In this document: one piece after another, positions 38,196-55,383 of the stretch
Layout of the letters: each line of letters opens with the position of its first letter
How positions within the stretch are numbered: the first letter of the stretch is position 1
DNA from: an uncultured Bacilli bacterium
Lineage (GTDB): Bacteria > Bacillota_I > Bacilli_A > RF39 > UBA660
Reading direction: 5' to 3'
DNA: 64,000 nt
NCBI GenBank assembly: GCA_934130545.1
Contig: CAKOYD010000003.1
Span: 15,430 to 79,429, forward strand
Made by a program: the position numbers and the translations under genes
Notes under the pieces: generated by a model
Seen by the model: only the letters and a program-made list of their open reading frames with translations
What the model was told of the DNA's origin: nothing
Databases searched by the model: none

Positions 38196-38501
38196 TTAGT
38201 TTAAACTTTCAGTATCTCTTAAAATAGATTGTTCAGTTGCTTTAACATCTTGGTTAGCAGAACTTATACTGTTAGCAAATTGTTCAACTAAAGATGTGTA
38301 TGAATCAAACTTGCTTTTTAATTGATCATACTCGCTTCTAAATTGTTGACTAGCTTGACCTTCAAACATACCACTTGAAAAAATATTATTCATTGTAGCA
38401 TTGAAATCATCAAAAATGTTTTTCATATTAGAAGAATAATTTCTAATACTTGCAGCGTCAGCTTCAACTCTTTCATAAGTTATAGTTGTATTATTATTCA
38501 T
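38196..38501 (-). CDS. WXG100-family (EsxA-like) small helical protein
   Basis: 101-aa helix-turn-helix hairpin with F-E-G at the W-x-G position (SGMFEGQASQQFRSEYDQLKSKF...). Confidence 0.65.
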   Translation of the reverse strand: MNNNTTITYERVEADAASIRNYSSNMKNIFDDFNATMNNIFSSGMFEGQASQQFRSEYDQLKSKFDSYTSLVEQFANSISSANQDVKATEQSILRDTESLN

Positions 38502-38512
38502 ATTATCCCTCC

Positions 38513-38809
38513 TTATTGAAAACGTGTTCTTGATATAATATCATCTTGTGTTGTTTCTATCTTACCAGATGATGTGATACAAAATTGACCATAACGACTA
38601 ATAGTATTACACATACGTGTAAGGTCATCACTGTAGCTATAAATTTGATTAGCAATAGCCATAGCTTCTGGTGAAATATAATCACTATGTATCATTTCAT
38701 CTACTGTTTTAAAAATATTATCGCTATTATTCTTAAAAGATTCTGCATTTTCTAATAATTTTTTACCACTAGCAGTTAAAGCAACTGGTGAAATACTAAA
38801 TGCTCCCAT
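38513..38809 (-). CDS. WXG100-like/Lap-like small helical protein
   Basis: 98 aa, predicted all-helical, adjacent to the EsxA-like gene in the same operon. No W-x-G motif. Confidence 0.45.
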   Translation of the reverse strand: MGAFSISPVALTASGKKLLENAESFKNNSDNIFKTVDEMIHSDYISPEAMAIANQIYSYSDDLTRMCNTISRYGQFCITSSGKIETTQDDIISRTRFQ

Positions 38810-38899
38810 AATGTCTCCTTTCCAACATAATAATGTTCATATGTTATATGTTAAGTATATCATTAATTTATCTTCAAGTAAATAATTTTACACGTATAT

Positions 38900-39256
38900 T
38901 TACACTATCTCAGAATCATCTTGCTTTTTTATTTCTTTAGTTTTTTCTTCATTTAATTCGCTTAATGTTTTCTTTAGTGTATCAACATTCTTTTCTATTA
39001 TATCTAATGAGTCAACAAGTTTTTTTCTATTAGTATCTTGAATATCGTTATATATAGCACTGTTTTTTTCACTCTTAATAGACTTAAATAGTAAATCAAT
39101 ACAGTCATTAATATAAAAATCAATTGAAATTAATGATTCTTGTAAATTGGTTAACTCTTTTATTTTTTTCTTATTGTTATATATCTTATCATCTAAATCG
39201 TATATTTTTTTTCTTTTATCATAGTCAAAATTATCTGCTTTTTTATTATTTACCAT
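38900..39256 (-). CDS. coiled-coil protein (118 aa)
   Basis: Lys/Glu-rich heptad-like sequence within the LXG-like operon. Confidence 0.45.
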   Translation of the reverse strand: MVNNKKADNFDYDKRKKIYDLDDKIYNNKKKIKELTNLQESLISIDFYINDCIDLLFKSIKSEKNSAIYNDIQDTNRKKLVDSLDIIEKNVDTLKKTLSELNEEKTKEIKKQDDSEIV

Positions 39257-39267
39257 ATATATACCTC

Positions 39268-41091
39268 TTATACTCTAATTATTTCTTTTAAATCATTATA
39301 TTTATTTTTAAATTCACTAACACTTAAATTATTAAATGTACTATCATTAAATATTACTTTAACATATCTATCTTTCATCATAATATTTTCTATACCACTA
39401 TTACCATACATACTCTTCAAATTAAATAACGCATTAGCAGCATTCTCACTATTTCCGAAATCATAATAATATTCAATACCTGTAATAGTCTCTCCATCTC
39501 GATGTAATATTACTTTAAACTCATTATTATAATCAAACACTACTTTATCATTAGTAGAATATAATTCATTATACTCTGGAAACTCTTCTTTCCAATTAGT
39601 AATGGTATTAGTTTCTTCTCTAGGACTATCTTTTACTGGATTCCATTTCTTTTTCTTTTCAGGATTATCAGTTTTTGGTATTTCCTTACTTTTTTCACTC
39701 TCCTGACCATTATCATCCTTTTCAATAGCAGGTTGATCATCCATGACATTTTTAGTAATTAAATCCTTATTATTACCATCAATATCATCATCCTTAATAG
39801 ATTTATCCGTTTCTACCACTTTATCTATCAAGTCTACTCCAGCGCCAGTTCCCGCTAATTTTGAAACTAAAGTAGTGTCATCTTCATCATTAACTGTCTC
39901 TGCCTCACGAGCAATTTCTTTTTCTCCTTCATCTAGGGCAATACCACCTTCTTCCATTTGCTTCAAAGTAGCAACTAAACCACACAATAATGTTGAAGCT
40001 GCCATACAATAACTACTAACTATTTCAGGTATTTGTGTTGGAACTTTAGTAGTACTAGAACCGGCAGTTAAAGATACTTCACTACTTACAATTGTTGTAT
40101 TTTTAACTGTTGATAATACATTATTAACATTGGATATTAAAATTCCTAAATCAGACTTTATATCAATATTACTAACGTTAATAGCATTATTGCTTAATGC
40201 CTCTTTTAAATATCTTAAGTTACCTTTATATATTCTTTCGGTTAAAGGGCCAACATCTATGCCAAGGTAACTATATAATTTATCTAAGGTATTGATATTT
40301 TCAACGCCTATTTTTTCCCATGAACCTGTTTCTAAATTCCTTGATTCATATAAGTATCCTGCATGAGCCCAACTATTATAATTATGGGCTGCATCAGTAA
40401 AACTGGCATCTGTAAGATCAACATTAGTGTTATCATTTAAAAAGTCAATAAAGCCATCTTTAAAGAAAGCTTCTTCTGCTCCCCAGTGACCTACTCTGCC
40501 TGGTTCTAATACATTTAATACATTGCAACCATTATCAGTAAGTAAATCTAAGATGCTACTATATGTCGTACCTAAAGAATGATAATGTCTCTCCTCACCA
40601 TACCTACCGGTATAAGATATAAAAGCAGTTTGATTATCTTTATATAAATCATAGTTGTAATTGTAGCGTGTTTCTCCTTTTTGAGGGTAAGTTTCTACTA
40701 AATATACATTGGCTGGGTCGCTACTTGGATGTTTTTCTAAGTATGTATCTAGGACGCCAAAAGTGGAATAATAACCACTACTATATCCAGATACTACTAG
40801 TTTGTTCTGATTAATATTTTTTTCACTTATAAAGTTGTCATATGAATTAACGACATCATTAAAATATTCTTCAGTAGTTCTATTACTGGCATTAGGCATC
40901 ATAATTATTGATTTTGTATTGTTATATGCATTATTTAAATAGTTCATTGCGTCATTAGTATCGCCAATTGTATTTCCACCACCATGCATATATAAAGCTA
41001 CTTGGGTATCTGCAGGAATATTATTAGGATCAATTCCTTCTGGATAATATATTCTATATTGAACGCCATCTATAAATGTATCTTGAAACAT
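39268..41091 (-). CDS. 607-aa protein: N-terminal alpha/beta-hydrolase (esterase/lipase-like), a hydrophobic/helical central region, an acidic linker and a small C-terminal domain
   Basis: LYMHGGGNT oxyanion-hole-like motif and nucleophile elbow G-Y-S-S-G (VVSGYSSGYYS). No signal peptide. AGGAAG RBS. Confidence 0.6.
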   Translation of the reverse strand: MFQDTFIDGVQYRIYYPEGIDPNNIPADTQVALYMHGGGNTIGDTNDAMNYLNNAYNNTKSIIMMPNASNRTTEEYFNDVVNSYDNFISEKNINQNKLVVSGYSSGYYSTFGVLDTYLEKHPSSDPANVYLVETYPQKGETRYNYNYDLYKDNQTAFISYTGRYGEERHYHSLGTTYSSILDLLTDNGCNVLNVLEPGRVGHWGAEEAFFKDGFIDFLNDNTNVDLTDASFTDAAHNYNSWAHAGYLYESRNLETGSWEKIGVENINTLDKLYSYLGIDVGPLTERIYKGNLRYLKEALSNNAINVSNIDIKSDLGILISNVNNVLSTVKNTTIVSSEVSLTAGSSTTKVPTQIPEIVSSYCMAASTLLCGLVATLKQMEEGGIALDEGEKEIAREAETVNDEDDTTLVSKLAGTGAGVDLIDKVVETDKSIKDDDIDGNNKDLITKNVMDDQPAIEKDDNGQESEKSKEIPKTDNPEKKKKWNPVKDSPREETNTITNWKEEFPEYNELYSTNDKVVFDYNNEFKVILHRDGETITGIEYYYDFGNSENAANALFNLKSMYGNSGIENIMMKDRYVKVIFNDSTFNNLSVSEFKNKYNDLKEIIRV

Positions 41092-51728: not shown

Positions 51729-52244
51729 TTATTTTTGTTCCGTTATTGATAATATTTTAGATACTATTTTAGTAATATTTTCACTTTTATTTACAGCTAC
51801 TTTTTTTCCTAAGGCTTTACCACCGATAGTTAGTGATGATATTGTAGCAGTTACTAATAGACTACAAATAATTGAGTCTTTAGCAATAGAAGTAGCAATA
51901 ATTACTCCGGCAGTACCTGAGACAATACCACATATATCCCCAATTACATCATTGCAGAATGATGAAACTTTATCTTTATTTTTAATTAATTTAATAGCTG
52001 TTTTAGCACCTTTTATTTTACGGGAAGCCATAGCATGAAAGGGATATTCAGCACATGTCGTAACGGCTACTCCGATCATATCAAAGATTATTCCTATTAG
52101 GATAACAGTTAATAATACTAATAATTCAATAACAATATTAGATTTCTTTAATATTGTTTCAGATAGATATGAAAATATCATAGATATAACGAATGTTAAA
52201 CTAGTTATCAATAATATCCATTTAATATTTTGTTTACTTTTCAT
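51729..52244 (-). CDS. oapA: OapA-like 4-TM protein (DUF21/CNNM-TM-like)
   Basis: 171 aa with four predicted TM helices and a DxxxD motif (D99-V-I-G-D103) at the start of TM3. Lies immediately downstream of the large ORF-free structured region. AGGAG RBS. Confidence 0.6.
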   Translation of the reverse strand: MKSKQNIKWILLITSLTFVISMIFSYLSETILKKSNIVIELLVLLTVILIGIIFDMIGVAVTTCAEYPFHAMASRKIKGAKTAIKLIKNKDKVSSFCNDVIGDICGIVSGTAGVIIATSIAKDSIICSLLVTATISSLTIGGKALGKKVAVNKSENITKIVSKILSITEQK

Positions 52245-52261
52245 AATTCACTCCTATGTAA

Positions 52262-52286
52262 ATGAAAAAGGCAATAATTGCCTTTA
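52262..52286 (-). terminator. hairpin with U-run at the 3' end of the large ncRNA, 18 nt upstream of the oapA-like RBS
   Basis: Minus strand reads AAAGGCAAT-t-ATTGCCTTT followed by TTTCATTT. Confidence 0.7.
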
Positions 52287-52930
52287 ATCACTACTTATTT
52301 ATCATATGGCTATTAATATAGTTAACTTTGCGTCTTAGGTCAAGTAGGGTTTCCCTATTCTCTGCATAGACGTTACCATCTATGTGGTTCCCCTTTAAAG
52401 AGAATAATATAAAGTCGCCTATTATATGACTTGATTGCCACTTAGTACACACCATAATCCTATATTATGACACTCTAGGAGTTTTCCTCACCAATTGTTT
52501 ATTAGTTATTCTTTTTTGCAATGATAGTTTCATGTTGCAATACTTAAAATGGTTATAGCTATTAACATATTATAAGCTGATCAGCAATTCCCTATCATCA
52601 CGCAAGACAAGCTACACTACTCGTAAATTCAATACATAGTAGGTTTAATCCTAAGTCATAGTATTTCGTCAACTGTTGTGTATAGATCTACTACAAGATT
52701 AGGTCTCCATGAAAATTGGAACGGGTATCGTATGCCATTACGGTCGCCCAACTTTCTTACCACTCAGCACTCGCCCCAAATTGGGCATAAGAAGCAAGCA
52801 CCAAGTGTTTCACAGTTGTGCTCTTTAACGGATTTTTAGGCCCGTCTTCGTAATAAACTTAATTGACTAGAATAATGTGCCACACGTACTTGTAATAATA
52901 CCATATTTTGTTCATTTTGTCAAATTTTAG
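52287..52930 (-). ncRNA. large structured non-coding RNA, OLE-like (about 640 nt)
   Basis: The 735-bp gap (52245-52979) has no ORF of 60 aa or more on any frame, in a window that is otherwise more than 90% coding. GC is visibly higher than in the flanks. It contains many local hairpins, an extended -10 upstream and a terminator downstream, and it is followed by the oapA-like gene. Ends are approximate. Confidence 0.6.
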
Positions 52931-52932
52931 AT

Positions 52933-52940
52933 ATTATACA
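52933..52940 (-). promoter_or_regulatory. extended -10 element (TGTATAAT) for the ncRNA
   Basis: Minus strand reads tttGTATAATat about 40 nt after the upstream gene's stop. No good -35 element. Confidence 0.4.
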
Positions 52941-52979
52941 AATATTAGTAGTAGTATATTATATTGTTTTAGATATGAT

Positions 52980-53819
52980 TTATGCTAGTAGAAAACTAGA
53001 TAAAACTCCTACTAAAACCCCTACTACATAGATAATACTTAGTATTAATAAATTATCTTTAATATTTTTATTAGTCTTAAATAAGATTAAAATACCAAGA
53101 CCACTATTAGTTAATAAACCGGCTATTAGTGATGAAATATTAACTATTCCTTTAGCATACATTTCACTAATTATAACACTAGAAGCACAGTTAGGAATAA
53201 GTCCTACTAAACTAGATATTAATGGTCCAATAACATTATTATAAGATAATACTTTTTCTATATATGTATGACCATAGTATTCAACTATAATATTTAGAAT
53301 AAGAGAAAAGATAAATATAAATCCTGTTATAGAAATAGTATGTTTAATACTAGATAGTATTGGTTTATGATCACAATCACAATGTGTTTCTTCGCATAGC
53401 TTATCAATAGTATTTTCAGAATTATTTTCCTCTTTAAAAATTATATCTACTAATAAACCTATTATAATACCTACTACTATCTTAATGCCTAATATTAATA
53501 AGATTTTCTTTACAGCAATGTTTTCAGATAGTAATACCGGAATCATTTCATCAGAAGTAGATAAGAATATGGCTATTAATGTTCCTTTAGTAATTATTTT
53601 AGTAGCATATAAGTTAGAAGCTGCCACTGAAAAACCGCATTGGGGAATAACTCCTAATATAGAACCTATTATTGGTCCGTATTTACCAGAAGATTTAGTT
53701 ATATTAATACTTTTCTTACTAATATTATGTTCTAAATATTCCATTACTAAGAAAGCTATAAATAGAAATGGTACTATTTTTAAACAATCAATAATTGTAT
53801 CTAAGATAATTTCAGTCAT
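52980..53819 (-). CDS. multi-TM permease (putative 10-TM metal-ion exporter family)
   Basis: Start set to MTEIILD (ATG 53819, GGTGGTGA RBS). Has about 8-10 TM segments and a central Cys/His cluster (CEETHCDCDHKP). The family assignment is from memory of the N-terminal ...LK.VPFLF....EYLEH pattern. Confidence 0.55.
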   Translation of the reverse strand: MTEIILDTIIDCLKIVPFLFIAFLVMEYLEHNISKKSINITKSSGKYGPIIGSILGVIPQCGFSVAASNLYATKIITKGTLIAIFLSTSDEMIPVLLSENIAVKKILLILGIKIVVGIIIGLLVDIIFKEENNSENTIDKLCEETHCDCDHKPILSSIKHTISITGFIFIFSLILNIIVEYYGHTYIEKVLSYNNVIGPLISSLVGLIPNCASSVIISEMYAKGIVNISSLIAGLLTNSGLGILILFKTNKNIKDNLLILSIIYVVGVLVGVLSSFLLA

Positions 53820-53895: not shown

Positions 53896-55383
53896 TCATA
53901 CTATAAAGGGATCTGTGGCGGTGCCTGTTCCTCCTGATACTGATATTCCTGGTTTAAGTGATATTACAGGTCTTGATGCATTCTTATAATATACTCCGCC
54001 ATCTGTTCCTTTTAAAATACCACTGTTGCCTATGTAAAGTTCATTGGAAACCGAACTAGTAAAATCATATGGTGACATAGTAAAATACCAAGCACCACTT
54101 CCTAAATAAAATCTAGCATCTACTTTGCCAATAACTGCCCCAGCATATACCATTTCATCAGCCGTAATTAATGCAACTGGATATGTTAAATTACCATTTC
54201 CATTATTTATATCCACCGTGAATCTATCTTTTAAATTTTTACATTTTAATGTTGGCGTTTTATTTACCTCTAATCTAGCTTTTGCTGCAAAGTTTAATGT
54301 TGAGTCACTAGTTGTATAACTTCTATCATTACAAAATACTGTATCCTCTAGTTTGTCTGTATAATTTGTCATATTATTTTTATACCAATTATCTATCGAC
54401 TTTTTTATTGTTGAGTCAGTTATGTTTGCTGCATCATCAATACTACTTCCGTACATATATCCTACATATTTTGCATTATCTCTGTTTGAATTAAATTCTG
54501 ATGTTGCTATTGCAGAATTACCTCCAGTATTATTGCATTGCCCGCTAGATGATACACCATCGTATATTAATTTAACTCCCCCTGTTTCTGTGGTTCTTAT
54601 TATTCTCCAACATTTATCTGCAAATATTACTCTATTATTTACATTACCGCGATAATAATATACTAGCATACCACTATCTGTATCCGTAGTCATATAAATA
54701 CCATTGGTGGCAGCTTCATCAGATGTTTTACTGAAATCAACACTAGTAGTTTTATTAGCGGCACTTTCTATTTTATAATATAAAGTACCTGAGCTTGCCG
54801 TTATGCCTGCAACAGTCTTTAAACTTGGATTATTACTAGTTGTCCCCTTCATTTTTACTGATATACTTCCTGATAGATTTTGTGTTTCCATTTCATCCAT
54901 CCAAATGTATAAATAGTATGTTTTAGTAAATGAATTACTAGTTCTTGTTATATCATCATAATCATTCTTTATTAACCATATATCACTACCTTGAGTCTTG
55001 TCTTTGAAACTACCTCCGGCAACGATATCTTGCATACAACTAGAACTATTAGTAGTTAGTGCATATCTCATAGTTTCTCTTTTAAAACTATCTGATAATG
55101 TTACTATACTCATACCTATACTAAATGAGACATTACCTCCTGACGTATTATTAGAGGTTGCAACTATTTTCTTTTTTATGGCATACTCACTAGTACATTT
55201 AGCCGGCATAAAAAATACATTTTCATTTCCTCCACCATCGATAGTCATCGTTAAATTACCTGATTTAATTTGAGTAATATTTGTTGCGGTCACACTTGTT
55301 GTTAAATAAGCAAAAGTTCCTCCAATTCCTAACATTACTATCGATAAAATAGTTAACATAATAAGTAAGTTTTTTCTTTTCAT
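53896..55383 (-). CDS. secreted/surface protein, paralogue of 22745..24544 (TasA-type signal plus lectin-like C-terminal module)
   Basis: GGTFAYLTTSVTATNITQIKSGNLTM. Long collinear identity blocks with the paralogue include GIYMTTDTDSG..VYYYRGNV, CWRI.RTTETGGVKLIYDG, DTVFCNDRSY and TGTATDPFI. Confidence 0.7.
   Translation of the reverse strand: MKRKNLLIMLTILSIVMLGIGGTFAYLTTSVTATNITQIKSGNLTMTIDGGGNENVFFMPAKCTSEYAIKKKIVATSNNTSGGNVSFSIGMSIVTLSDSFKRETMRYALTTNSSSCMQDIVAGGSFKDKTQGSDIWLIKNDYDDITRTSNSFTKTYYLYIWMDEMETQNLSGSISVKMKGTTSNNPSLKTVAGITASSGTLYYKIESAANKTTSVDFSKTSDEAATNGIYMTTDTDSGMLVYYYRGNVNNRVIFADKCWRIIRTTETGGVKLIYDGVSSSGQCNNTGGNSAIATSEFNSNRDNAKYVGYMYGSSIDDAANITDSTIKKSIDNWYKNNMTNYTDKLEDTVFCNDRSYTTSDSTLNFAAKARLEVNKTPTLKCKNLKDRFTVDINNGNGNLTYPVALITADEMVYAGAVIGKVDARFYLGSGAWYFTMSPYDFTSSVSNELYIGNSGILKGTDGGVYYKNASRPVISLKPGISVSGGTGTATDPFIV

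What the first reader, a model, noticed from the sequence alone, without database searches (positions are those of the whole stretch)
51729..52940. A ~640-nt ORF-free structured RNA followed by a 4-TM DxxxD protein: probable OLE RNA / OapA ribonucleoprotein locus
Seen in the sequence. (1) Positions 52245-52979 form the only long non-coding gap in the window, with no ORF of 60 aa or more in six frames. (2) The gap is visibly richer in G/C than its surroundings. (3) On the minus strand it starts after an extended -10 (TGTATAAT, 52933-52940) and ends at a hairpin plus U-run (52262-52286), only ~18 nt before the RBS of the next gene. (4) It holds many G/C-anchored local helices, for example TAGGG-aaa-CCCTA (52345-52357) and CATAGA-N8-TCTATG (52365-52384), closed by TCTC/GAGA. 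(5) It also contains a perfect 10-nt palindrome GCTGATCAGC (52576-52585) that could make an intermolecular kissing contact. (6) The downstream gene (51729-52244) encodes a 171-aa protein with four TM helices and D99-x-x-x-D103 at the start of TM3. Established knowledge. OLE RNAs are roughly 600-nt RNAs of anaerobic or extremophilic Firmicutes. Their gene is almost invariably followed by oapA, which encodes a small 4-TM protein whose DxxxD motif is functionally important. Inference. This locus is an OLE/OapA pair, possibly a divergent lineage variant. The terminator between the RNA and oapA, and the multi-TM Cys/His-rich putative metal exporter immediately upstream (52980-53819), are unusual context. 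That context may matter because OLE RNP phenotypes involve divalent-metal stress. I cannot verify the consensus from memory.
Basis: partly seen in the sequence, partly recalled or inferred. Interest (0 to 1): 0.8.

Follow-up and report, generated by a model that had tools for sequence, protein, structure and literature searches.

The report
OLE RNA gene with oapA

Summary
The Rfam OLE model (RF01071) matches window 52290-52899 on the minus strand over its whole length, at 386.6 bits and E 4.7e-110, and it is the only Rfam family hit in the 64 kb.

The 171-aa gene 49 nt downstream belongs to the OapA family:
- It has four long helices and an invariant D99-x-x-x-D103.
- It gives a weak, sub-threshold CNNM (PF01595) match and has a CorB/CorC-like predicted fold.
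- In 77 of 80 other species, homologues of this protein sit directly downstream of an OLE RNA.

The Rfam consensus structure is supported by covariation across 76 OLE sequences. 87.8% of cells are paired, against 38-46% in shifted controls.

Four details of the finding need correcting:
- The promoter is TTGACA-17-TGgTATTAT (52923-52895), not TGTATAAT at 52940-52933.
- The 10-nt palindrome is not conserved and is expected by chance. The published symmetric kissing loop maps to AGCU at 52560-52557.
- A terminator-like hairpin before oapA occurs in about a quarter of related loci, so it is not unusual.
- The ArsP_2 efflux gene upstream is found only in this species.

This is a known RNA class, a routine member of a low-GC gut clade. 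Interest is low.

The parts
52918..52923 (-). -35 hexamer TTGACA of the ole promoter
   Evidence: It is part of the 11-of-12 match TTGACA-17-TATTAT with an upstream TG. A promoter at this position relative to the RNA core scores 9 of 12 or better in 68% of 72 other-species loci, against 2.9% at random positions.
52895..52903 (-). Extended -10 element TGgTATTAT
   Evidence: It ends 13 nt before my estimate of the conserved-core start, the same spacing as in L001-L004, L009, L013, L016, L018, L025, L048 and L084.
52290..52899 (-). OLE RNA gene (Rfam RF01071). The match includes model flanks. The conserved core runs from about 52883 (GUGGCACAUUAUUCUAGUC) to about 52307 (CCA).
   Evidence: cmscan gives 386.6 bits, E 4.7e-110, model positions 1-616 of 616. 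136 of the 151 retained consensus pairs are canonical in the window. Covariation across 76 homologues supports the structure.
52825..52846 (-). Hairpin GACGGG-CCUAAAAA-UCCGUU with the conserved A-rich loop, read as the P4 loop that the literature names as one dimerisation centre
   Evidence: Sequence. UAAA of the loop is invariant in 76 OLEs and the flanking loop bases are at least 90% conserved. Helix 1 is 98% paired with 5 covarying pairs. The dimerisation role comes from PMC12265935. The assignment to P4 is my inference.
52782..52786 (-). Conserved loop GCCCA, inferred to be one partner of the P5.1/P6.1 intermolecular kissing loops
   Evidence: Four of its five bases (G, C, C, A) are invariant and the fifth is at least 90% conserved. 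It is complementary to the UGGC loop below. The kissing role comes from PMC12265935. The assignment to these loops is inferred.
52732..52739 (-). Conserved loop AAUGGCAU, inferred to be the other partner of the P5.1/P6.1 kissing loops
   Evidence: The columns A161, A162, G164, G165, C166, A167 and T168 are invariant. Helix 4 is 100% paired.
52557..52560 (-). Self-complementary tetranucleotide AGCU in the terminal loop of the long P9 hairpin. This is the homologue of the published symmetric kissing loop (bridge B3).
   Evidence: It aligns with GGCC of the Clostridium acetobutylicum OLE used for cryo-EM. Across 76 OLEs this position reads GGCC 57 times, AGCU 12, GUAC 4 and GCGC 1, all palindromic. 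PMC12286853 reports GGCC/GAUC/AGCU covariation at this loop.
52576..52585 (-). It is not a conserved element.
   Evidence: It is not conserved in same-species relatives, and 1.7 such palindromes are expected by chance in a region of this size.
52258..52285 (-). Terminator-like hairpin AAAGGCAAU-UAU-UGCCUUU plus a U-rich tail, lying between ole and oapA
   Evidence: It is identical in L001-L004. Comparable hairpins occur in 21 of the 80 scanned spacers, which include the window and its four same-species copies.
52251..52255 (-). Ribosome-binding site AGGAG of oapA
   Evidence: Read from the sequence. It lies 6 nt before the ATG at 52244.
51729..52244 (-). oapA, encoding a 171-aa four-helix membrane protein with D99-x-x-x-D103 and a basic loop at about residues 75-92
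52980..53819 (-). Upstream neighbour: an ArsP_2 / arsenic-efflux family permease. It is adjacent to the ole-oapA unit but not part of it.
   Evidence: Pfam PF11449, E 1.7e-23; NCBIfam NF037962, 287 bits against a cut-off of 100. It lies next to OLE only in the same-species contigs L001-L004 and in none of 80 other species.

Best explanation
The locus is a standard ole-oapA unit of a low-GC, uncultured gut Bacillota species.

Shown here:
- A roughly 580-600-nt OLE RNA gene with a consensus sigma-A-type promoter match in front of it.
- The full set of conserved OLE sequence blocks and helices.
- A hairpin plus U-tract 3' of the RNA.
- 49 nt after the OLE match, an oapA gene with its own ribosome-binding site.

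Inferred from published work on Halalkalibacterium halodurans and Clostridium OLE RNAs, and not tested here:
- The RNA is made in large amounts and folds into two domains.
- It dimerises through the A-rich P4 loops, the complementary GCCCA/UGGC loops and the palindromic P9 loop, which reads AGCU in this species.
- OapA dimers bind it and anchor it in the membrane.
- The resulting particle helps the cell cope with cold, short-chain alcohols, excess Mg2+ and poor carbon sources.

Also inferred: the 3' hairpin probably ends or stabilises most OLE transcripts and lets a fraction read through, which gives the lower expression of oapA.
For: RNA identity and structure:
- Rfam OLE matches full length at 386.6 bits, E 4.7e-110, and is the only family hit in the window.
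- 136 of 151 consensus pairs are canonical in the window.
- On 76 OLE sequences from other loci the same structure has 87.8% of cells paired, against 38-46% when partners are slid.
- On the same alignment 126 of 151 pairs carry double changes, and 0 of 500 shuffles reach the observed values.
- The promoter is an 11-of-12 match with a TG extension, at a position conserved across species: 68% against 2.9% at random positions.

Protein identity:
- The family has 1104 cluster representatives.
- D55, D99, G102, D103, G110, K143 and K147 are invariant in 47 diverse members.
- 77 of 80 homologue loci from other species carry OLE on the same strand upstream. Rfam confirmed this on ten loci, including Aeribacillus, Halobacillus and Alkaliphilus.
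- The protein gives a weak CNNM match, E 1.2e-3, below the cut-off.
- Its best fold matches are MtCorB 7M1T/7M1U and CorC 7CFF. PMC11332333 reports the same for H. halodurans OapA.
- D100A/D104A in H. halodurans OapA is the published dominant-negative PM1 mutant (PMC9723947). The window protein has D99 and D103.

Dimerisation element:
- The P9 loop palindrome AGCU aligns with GGCC of the cryo-EM construct and covaries as a palindrome (PMC12286853).
Against: - No expression data exist, so transcript ends, abundance, dimerisation, OapA binding and any phenotype are all inferred from other species.
- The score is about 70-150 bits lower than for the four named-species OLEs tested, and 15 consensus pairs are non-canonical in the window.
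- oapB, oapC and mpfA status could not be checked, because only 64 kb of the genome is available.
- The ten further window proteins scanned against Pfam, seven of them under 135 aa, showed no KOW or L7Ae domain.
- The H. halodurans OapA sequence itself was not available for a direct comparison.
Confidence: 0.96

Rival explanations
1. The OLE RNA and the upstream ArsP_2 efflux permease form a functional unit: a metal- or metalloid-responsive variant of the OLE system in which the RNA particle regulates, or is co-transcribed with, the exporter.
For: - The two genes lie on the same strand, with about 56 nt between the ArsP_2 stop and the -35 hexamer, and no terminator-like site was found between them.
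- The literature links OLE phenotypes to Mg2+ stress and lists metal-homeostasis genes among frequent ole neighbours (PMC12265935).
Against: - ArsP_2 lies next to OLE only in the four same-species contigs and in none of 80 other species loci.
- OLE has its own strong, positionally conserved promoter.
- ArsP_2 is annotated for arsenic efflux, not Mg2+.
- Adjacency in a single species is what gene shuffling produces by chance.
Confidence: 0.05
2. The RNA gene is a decaying or non-functional remnant of OLE in a host-associated lineage that no longer needs it.
For: - The Rfam score is lower than for OLEs of named, cultured species.
- One small hairpin is missing.
- 15 consensus pairs are mismatched in the window.
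Against: - The match covers the whole model.
- Every nucleotide that is invariant across the 76-sequence alignment is by definition present in the window, which is its first row.
- Promoter, 3' hairpin and oapA are intact, and same-species contigs from different samples match the OLE profile at the same coordinates with near-identical scores.
- The missing hairpin is absent in 27 of 76 OLEs, so it is a shared variant.
- Changes in the clade preserve pairing.
Confidence: 0.02
3. The region is protein-coding (the 54-aa ORF at 52291-52455 on the minus strand or the 53-aa ORF at 52678-52839 on the plus strand), or it is a different large RNA class.
For: Two short ORFs exist in the gap.
Against: - The substitution pattern across species is compensatory base-pair change rather than codon-like.
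- No other Rfam family reaches its threshold.
Confidence: 0.01

Closest known systems
OLE (ornate, large, extremophilic) RNA, Rfam RF01071. Described in Bacillota, characterised in Halalkalibacterium halodurans, with cryo-EM structures from Clostridium acetobutylicum and C. botulinum.
   Same: - The match to the model is full length, and the conserved sequence blocks and helices are present.
- A promoter sits directly upstream.
- oapA lies directly downstream.
- The P9 loop is palindromic and the A-rich P4 loop is present.
- The host is most likely an anaerobic Bacillota species.
   Different: - The sequence is AT-rich (36% GC) and scores about 70-150 bits lower than the four named-species OLEs tested.
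- It lacks the small hairpin at model positions 424-435, as do 27 of 76 OLEs examined.
- It has a 10-nt insertion in one hairpin loop.
- The P9 loop reads AGCU rather than GGCC, a variant already reported in PMC12286853.
- The gene seems to have its own promoter, whereas in H. halodurans OLE is reported to be transcribed as part of a polycistronic RNA.
OapA (OLE-associated protein A)
   Same: - Its size and four transmembrane helices.
- The DxxxD motif in the third helix.
- A basic cytoplasmic loop.
- Weak CNNM/DUF21 similarity and a CorB-like fold.
- A gene position immediately 3' of ole.
   Different: - It is shorter at the N terminus than most family members: 171 aa against about 185-210, without the basic N-terminal extension seen in most aligned homologues.
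- It is 38-52% identical to the 46 aligned 50%-cluster representatives.
- It is 42-46% identical to the named-species homologues from Halobacillus, Aeribacillus, Oceanobacillus and Alkaliphilus.
CNNM/CorB/CorC/MpfA Mg2+ transporters (Pfam PF01595 transmembrane domain)
   Same: The predicted fold of the transmembrane region matches, and there is weak sequence similarity.
   Different: - The Pfam score of 18.9 is below the gathering cut-off of 28.4.
- There are no CBS or CorC_HlyC domains.
- The protein has four helices rather than three and carries the DxxxD motif that CNNM domains lack (PMC11332333).
- It is not a member of this family.

Membership tests
OLE RNA (RF01071) | The score against the curated covariance model is above the gathering threshold, over the whole model | tested here: met
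   386.6 bits against a threshold of 50, E 4.7e-110, model positions 1-616 of 616, not truncated.
OLE RNA (RF01071) | The sequence can form the ornate consensus secondary structure, and homologues support that structure by covariation | tested here: met
   - 151 of 159 consensus pairs are retained, and 136 of those are canonical in the window.
- On 76 sequences 87.8% of cells are paired, against 38-46% in slid controls.
- 126 pairs carry double changes.
OLE RNA (RF01071) | The highly conserved nucleotide blocks are present (about 25% of positions are near-invariant) | tested here: met
   The MAFFT alignment of 76 OLEs, with the window as first row, has about 110 invariant columns. The window shares all of them by construction.
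OLE RNA (RF01071) | oapA is the immediate downstream gene | tested here: met
   oapA starts 49 nt after the OLE match.
OLE RNA (RF01071) | The host is a Bacillota species, typically anaerobic or extremophilic | tested here: inconclusive
- Same-species contigs come from ENA metagenome assemblies whose sample names suggest human gut. That reading is mine and was not verified.
- The closest homologues are mostly in MAGs labelled Bacilli or Bacillota.
- Look-ups of protein names gave no organism.
OLE RNA (RF01071) | The sequence elements used for RNA dimerisation are present (A-rich P4 loop, complementary P5.1/P6.1 loops, palindromic P9 loop) | tested here: met
   - CCUAAAAAUCC, GCCCA and AAUGGCAU are present, and AGCU is the palindromic P9 loop.
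- Physical dimerisation was not tested.
OLE RNA (RF01071) | A stable, abundant, membrane-localised transcript of about 600 nt | not testable with these tools
   No expression or localisation data are available.
OapA | A small protein with four transmembrane helices | tested here: met
   - The protein is 171 aa.
- The hydropathy scan marks hydrophobic stretches over about residues 6-67 and 99-142.
- The AlphaFold2 model (pLDDT 92.9) has long helices at 5-33, 36-62, 89-119 and 124-151.
OapA | A conserved DxxxD motif (D100/D104 in H. halodurans, the site of the PM1 mutant) | tested here: met
   DVIGD lies at 99-103. Both Asp residues are invariant in 47 diverse family members. PM1 is described in PMC9723947.
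OapA | The family is genomically coupled to ole | tested here: met
   77 of 80 homologue loci from other species carry OLE on the same strand upstream. Rfam confirmed a sample of them.
OapA | Distant CNNM-like sequence and CorB-like fold, but no true CNNM membership | tested here: met
   - PF01595 gives E 1.2e-3 and 18.9 bits, below the cut-off of 28.4.
- The top Foldseek matches are 7M1T, 7M1U and 7CFF.
- This matches the description in PMC11332333.
OapA | A basic cluster on the cytoplasmic face | tested here: met
   Residues 75-92, RKIKGAKTAIKLIKNKDK, hold 8 Lys/Arg in 18 residues between helices 2 and 3. The cytoplasmic orientation is inferred.
OapA | Binds OLE RNA at 2:1 and localises it to the membrane | not testable with these tools
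   This is a biochemical property that has been established only for H. halodurans (PMC12265935).
CNNM / MpfA Mg2+ transporters | A Pfam CNNM domain above threshold, followed by CBS and CorC_HlyC domains | tested here: not met
   The CNNM score is below the cut-off, and the 171-aa protein has no other domains.
ArsP_2 / arsenic efflux permease (upstream neighbour) | A match to the curated family models above their thresholds | tested here: met
   PF11449 scores 83.8 bits against a cut-off of 32.5. NF037962 scores 287.3 bits against 100.

The most novel reading that the evidence does not exclude
The low-GC gut clade to which this OLE belongs may be a distinct OLE subtype. Its members score about 390 bits, lack the hairpin at model positions 424-435, and carry AGCU or GUAC in place of GGCC in the P9 kissing loop.

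On this reading the altered palindrome would set dimerisation specificity. In this species the RNA particle would also have been recruited next to, and would work with, an ArsP_2 metal or metalloid efflux permease.
Probability: 0.05. Interest if true: 0.4.

Novelty: already known. Interest (0 to 1): 0.15.

Why it matters
OLE RNA is one of the most enigmatic large bacterial RNAs, and its biochemical function is still unknown. This locus adds only one more routine example.

Its modest value is as a data point. It shows that a low-GC, host-associated, uncultured lineage keeps a complete ole-oapA unit with its own promoter. It also adds examples of the P9 kissing-loop palindrome covarying: AGCU in this species, and GUAC and GCGC in related loci. 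That is consistent with the published dimer model.

Nothing here opens a new question or makes an old one newly testable.

Tried and rejected
- **PDB sequence search.** The 171-aa protein gave no hit at E up to 1, so no solved OapA structure was available for comparison.
- **NCBIfam.** It has no model that matches the protein, and none of the family members looked up carried an informative name.
- **Naming the organism.** Cluster look-ups of six window proteins returned no organism names.
- **The 10-nt palindrome as a kissing contact.** Rejected. It is not conserved even within the species and is expected by chance. The homologous published element is the AGCU loop.
- **TGTATAAT at 52940-52933 as the promoter.** Rejected as the main promoter in favour of the positionally conserved TTGACA / TGgTATTAT site.
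- **A functional link to ArsP_2.** Rejected as unsupported, with 0 of 80 other species showing the adjacency.
- **The terminator as unusual context.** Rejected. Similar hairpins occur in 21 of the 80 scanned spacers.
- **oapB and oapC in the window.** None was found among the ten further proteins scanned against Pfam. This is uninformative, because those genes are reported to lie elsewhere in the genome.
- **The original 2006 OLE paper.** It could not be retrieved by DOI.
- **The C. acetobutylicum construct.** The sequence copied from the supplement came to 564 nt rather than 577 nt. Residue numbers therefore did not match the paper, and the loop was identified from its sequence context instead.
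Full report
**1. Observation**

52245-52979 is the largest stretch of the 64-kb window with no ORF of 60 aa or more. It is 735 nt long, and the next interior gap is 291 nt. Only chance ORFs of 54 and 53 aa lie inside it.

The GC content of the RNA match is 35.9%, against a window mean of 26.9% (sd 4.0% for 610-nt windows). That is the top 2.3% of windows, but not the maximum.

The hairpins, the 10-nt palindrome, the TGTATAAT motif, the 3' hairpin with its U-run, the ribosome-binding site and the 171-aa ORF with DVIGD at residues 99-103 are all at the stated coordinates.

**2. Identity of the RNA**

A scan of the whole window against all 4227 Rfam families gave one hit. It is OLE (RF01071) at 52290-52899 on the minus strand, at 386.6 bits against a gathering score of 50, E 4.7e-110, covering model positions 1-616 of 616. 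No other large-RNA family reached its threshold.

I transferred the Rfam consensus structure onto the window sequence. 151 of 159 consensus pairs are retained. The other eight are lost to a missing 12-nt hairpin at model positions 424-435 and small deletions. 136 of the 151 retained pairs are canonical.

**3. Independent support from relatives**

I collected 80 loci from other species by searching species-representative genomes with an alignment of homologues of the 171-aa protein.

- An nhmmer profile seeded with the window RNA found an OLE-like sequence on the same strand upstream of the protein gene in 77 of the 80.
- Rfam confirmed this on a sample. Scores were 533 bits in Aeribacillus pallidus, 507 in Halobacillus, 506 in Alkaliphilus transvaalensis and 459 in Peptoclostridium litorale.
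- Low-GC loci from MAGs labelled Bacilli, Bacillota or (probably mis-binned) Bacteroidaceae, together with same-species contig L001, scored 384-396 bits, like the window.
- Rfam also confirmed the three negatives, L005, L014 and L056.

I then mapped the Rfam structure onto a MAFFT alignment of 76 full-length OLEs.

| Measure | Observed | Controls |
|---|---|---|
| Cells forming a standard pair | 87.8% | 38-46% when 3' partners are slid by 1-3 columns; 67.7% in shuffles |
| Pairs with a change on both sides | 126 of 151 | 73-90 when slid; shuffled mean 102.3 |
| Shuffles reaching the observed value | 0 of 500 on every measure | n/a |

It is clearly not met.

**4. Identity of the protein**

Pfam gives only a weak, sub-threshold CNNM (PF01595) match, E 1.2e-3, 18.9 bits against a cut-off of 28.4. 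NCBIfam gives nothing.

This matches the published description of OapA (PMC11332333).
- It is a distant relative of the CNNM/DUF21 domain of MpfA-type Mg2+ transporters.
- It is set apart by a DxxxD motif and four rather than three transmembrane helices.
- Its predicted fold best matches CorB (7M1U).

The evidence gathered here agrees.
- The family has 1104 representatives at 50% clustering.
- In 47 diverse members D55, D99, G102, D103, G110, K143 and K147 are invariant (numbering corrected by +1 because the aligned first row lacked the initiator Met).
- An AlphaFold2 model (pLDDT 92.9, pTM 0.85) has long helices at 5-33, 36-62, 89-119 and 124-151, with the DxxxD motif in the third.
- Its best PDB fold matches are MtCorB 7M1T/7M1U and the CorC transmembrane domain 7CFF.
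- The published dominant-negative PM1 mutant of H. halodurans OapA is D100A/D104A (PMC9723947). The window protein has D99 and D103.

Together with the 77-of-80 genomic coupling to OLE, this places the protein in OapA. I could not compare it directly with the H. halodurans sequence. No OapA structure is in the PDB by sequence search.

**5. Corrections to the anatomy**

*Promoter.* The best sigma-70-type match is TTGACA (52923-52918), 17 nt, TGgTATTAT (52903-52895), at 11 of 12 with a TG extension. Its -10 ends 13 nt before the conserved core.
- In 72 loci from other species, a promoter scoring 9 of 12 or better with its -10 ending 8-22 nt upstream of the core occurs in 68%. At random positions in the same loci it occurs in 2.9%.

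*Palindrome.* GCUGAUCAGC at 52585-52576 spans one strand of a P9 helix, an internal loop and the start of the next helix in the Rfam alignment.
- It is broken in same-species contigs, which read GUUGAUCAGC, and is absent elsewhere.
- 1.7 ten-nt palindromes are expected per 735 nt of this AT-rich window.

- Cryo-EM of the C. acetobutylicum RNA shows a symmetric kissing loop in the terminal P9 loop. The paper calls it L9.3, bridge B3. Its tetranucleotide covaries between GGCC, GAUC and AGCU (PMC12286853, PMC12265935).
- Aligning the cryo-EM construct with the window puts AGCU (52560-52557) at that loop.
- In my 76 sequences the position reads GGCC 57 times, AGCU 12, GUAC 4 and GCGC 1, all self-complementary.

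The other published dimerisation elements are also present: the A-rich loop CCUAAAAAUCC and the complementary conserved loops GCCCA and AAUGGCAU. Assigning them to P4 and to P5.1/P6.1 is my inference from the text of PMC12265935.

*TAGGG-aaa-CCCTA.* Only the inner GG/CC pairs are conserved, with a few compensatory changes. The outer bases belong to the adjacent consensus helix.

**6. Context**

*3' hairpin.* The hairpin plus U-tract at 52285-52258 folds at -12.4 kcal/mol, z -3.8. A simple scan finds a comparable terminator-like hairpin in 21 of the 80 scanned spacers, which include the window and its four same-species copies. It is a minority feature but an ordinary one.

The promoter scan found no promoter-like site inside the 49-nt spacer. 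I therefore infer that oapA is expressed by partial read-through.

*Upstream gene.* It is a bona fide ArsP_2 / arsenic-efflux family permease. It lies next to OLE only in the four same-species contigs and in none of the 80 other species. I therefore see no evidence for a functional link.

The literature already notes that ole sits among varied housekeeping and metal-homeostasis genes (PMC12265935).

*Same-species contigs.* Apart from the 495-aa gene at 53896-55383, which these contigs lack, they share the window's gene order. The order is relA, dtd, AI-2E transporter, DUF8173, SDR, ArsP_2, ole, oapA, a 180-aa protein, NAGPA and a sigma factor.

**7. Mechanism**

*Shown here:* a complete OLE gene with a promoter match, a 3' hairpin and an intact oapA.

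*Inferred from work in H. halodurans and Clostridium (PMC12265935, PMC12286853, PMC9723947, PMC10898510):*
- The RNA folds into two domains and dimerises through the four centres named above.
- OapA dimers bind it and hold it in the membrane.
- It contributes to tolerance of cold, short-chain alcohols, excess Mg2+ and poor carbon sources.

None of this can be tested with sequence tools.

**8. Novelty and verdict**

This is a known RNA class found by its standard model, with its standard partner gene. The lineage-specific features are shared with other sequences and, for AGCU, already published.
- The score is lower than for OLEs of named, cultured species.
- The small hairpin is missing, as in 27 of 76 OLEs.
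- The kissing loop reads AGCU.
- The protein has a short N terminus.

The finding is correct and well observed, but it is ordinary. The most novel reading still open is a distinct gut-clade subtype with altered dimerisation specificity and a link to metal efflux. I give it about 5%.

Noticed in passing
window 53896-55383 (minus strand): A 495-aa protein has a weak, sub-threshold match to the SipW-dependent signal-peptide model (TIGR04088, E 0.0057) and no Pfam domain. It sits between the SDR gene and ArsP_2 in the window. It is absent from the four otherwise syntenic same-species contigs L001-L004, so it looks like a strain-specific insertion.
   Followed up: partly
L005, L014 and L056 (whole loci): Three OapA homologues have no OLE RNA in the upstream DNA held (4 kb for L005 and L014), by nhmmer and by Rfam. 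They include the top-ranked hit L005 (55% identical) and the most identical one, L014 (60%). L056 has only 567 nt upstream. These may be oapA genes separated from ole, or paralogues.
   Followed up: partly
L013, L015, L016 and L043 (P9 loop); L081:2435-3124: The P9 terminal-loop palindrome reads GUAC in four loci from MAGs labelled Bacilli, and GCGC in L081. These are self-complementary variants beyond the GGCC/GAUC/AGCU set quoted in PMC12286853. L032 (GUGGACGCAU) and L012 (distal P9 missing) have no palindrome.
   Followed up: partly
72 loci among L006-L084, about 10-40 nt upstream of the OLE core: A sigma-A-type promoter (TTGAxx, 17 nt, often TGnTATAAT) sits at a nearly fixed distance upstream of the OLE core in most species. 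It scores 9 of 12 or better in 68% of loci, against 2.9% at random positions. This suggests that most ole genes have their own promoter.
   Followed up: yes
window 52315-52343 (minus strand): A promoter-like match, TTGACC-17-TATATT (10 of 12), lies inside the 3' part of OLE. Its -35 overlaps the highly conserved CUUGACCUAAG motif. It is probably a coincidence of the conserved RNA sequence.
   Followed up: no
L007, L018:2228-3979 and L081:3125-3937: In these loci about 0.8-1.8 kb separates OLE from the oapA homologue, instead of the usual 20-100 nt. This suggests insertions between the two genes.
   Followed up: no
window 38196-41091 (minus strand): A WXG100-family small protein (38196-38501) lies next to several unannotated ORFs, including one of 607 aa. 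This could be a type VII / ESX-like secretion cluster.
   Followed up: no
L072:42-545: A cluster of four tRNA genes lies about 2.8 kb upstream of the OLE RNA in this locus from a MAG labelled Bacilli.
   Followed up: no
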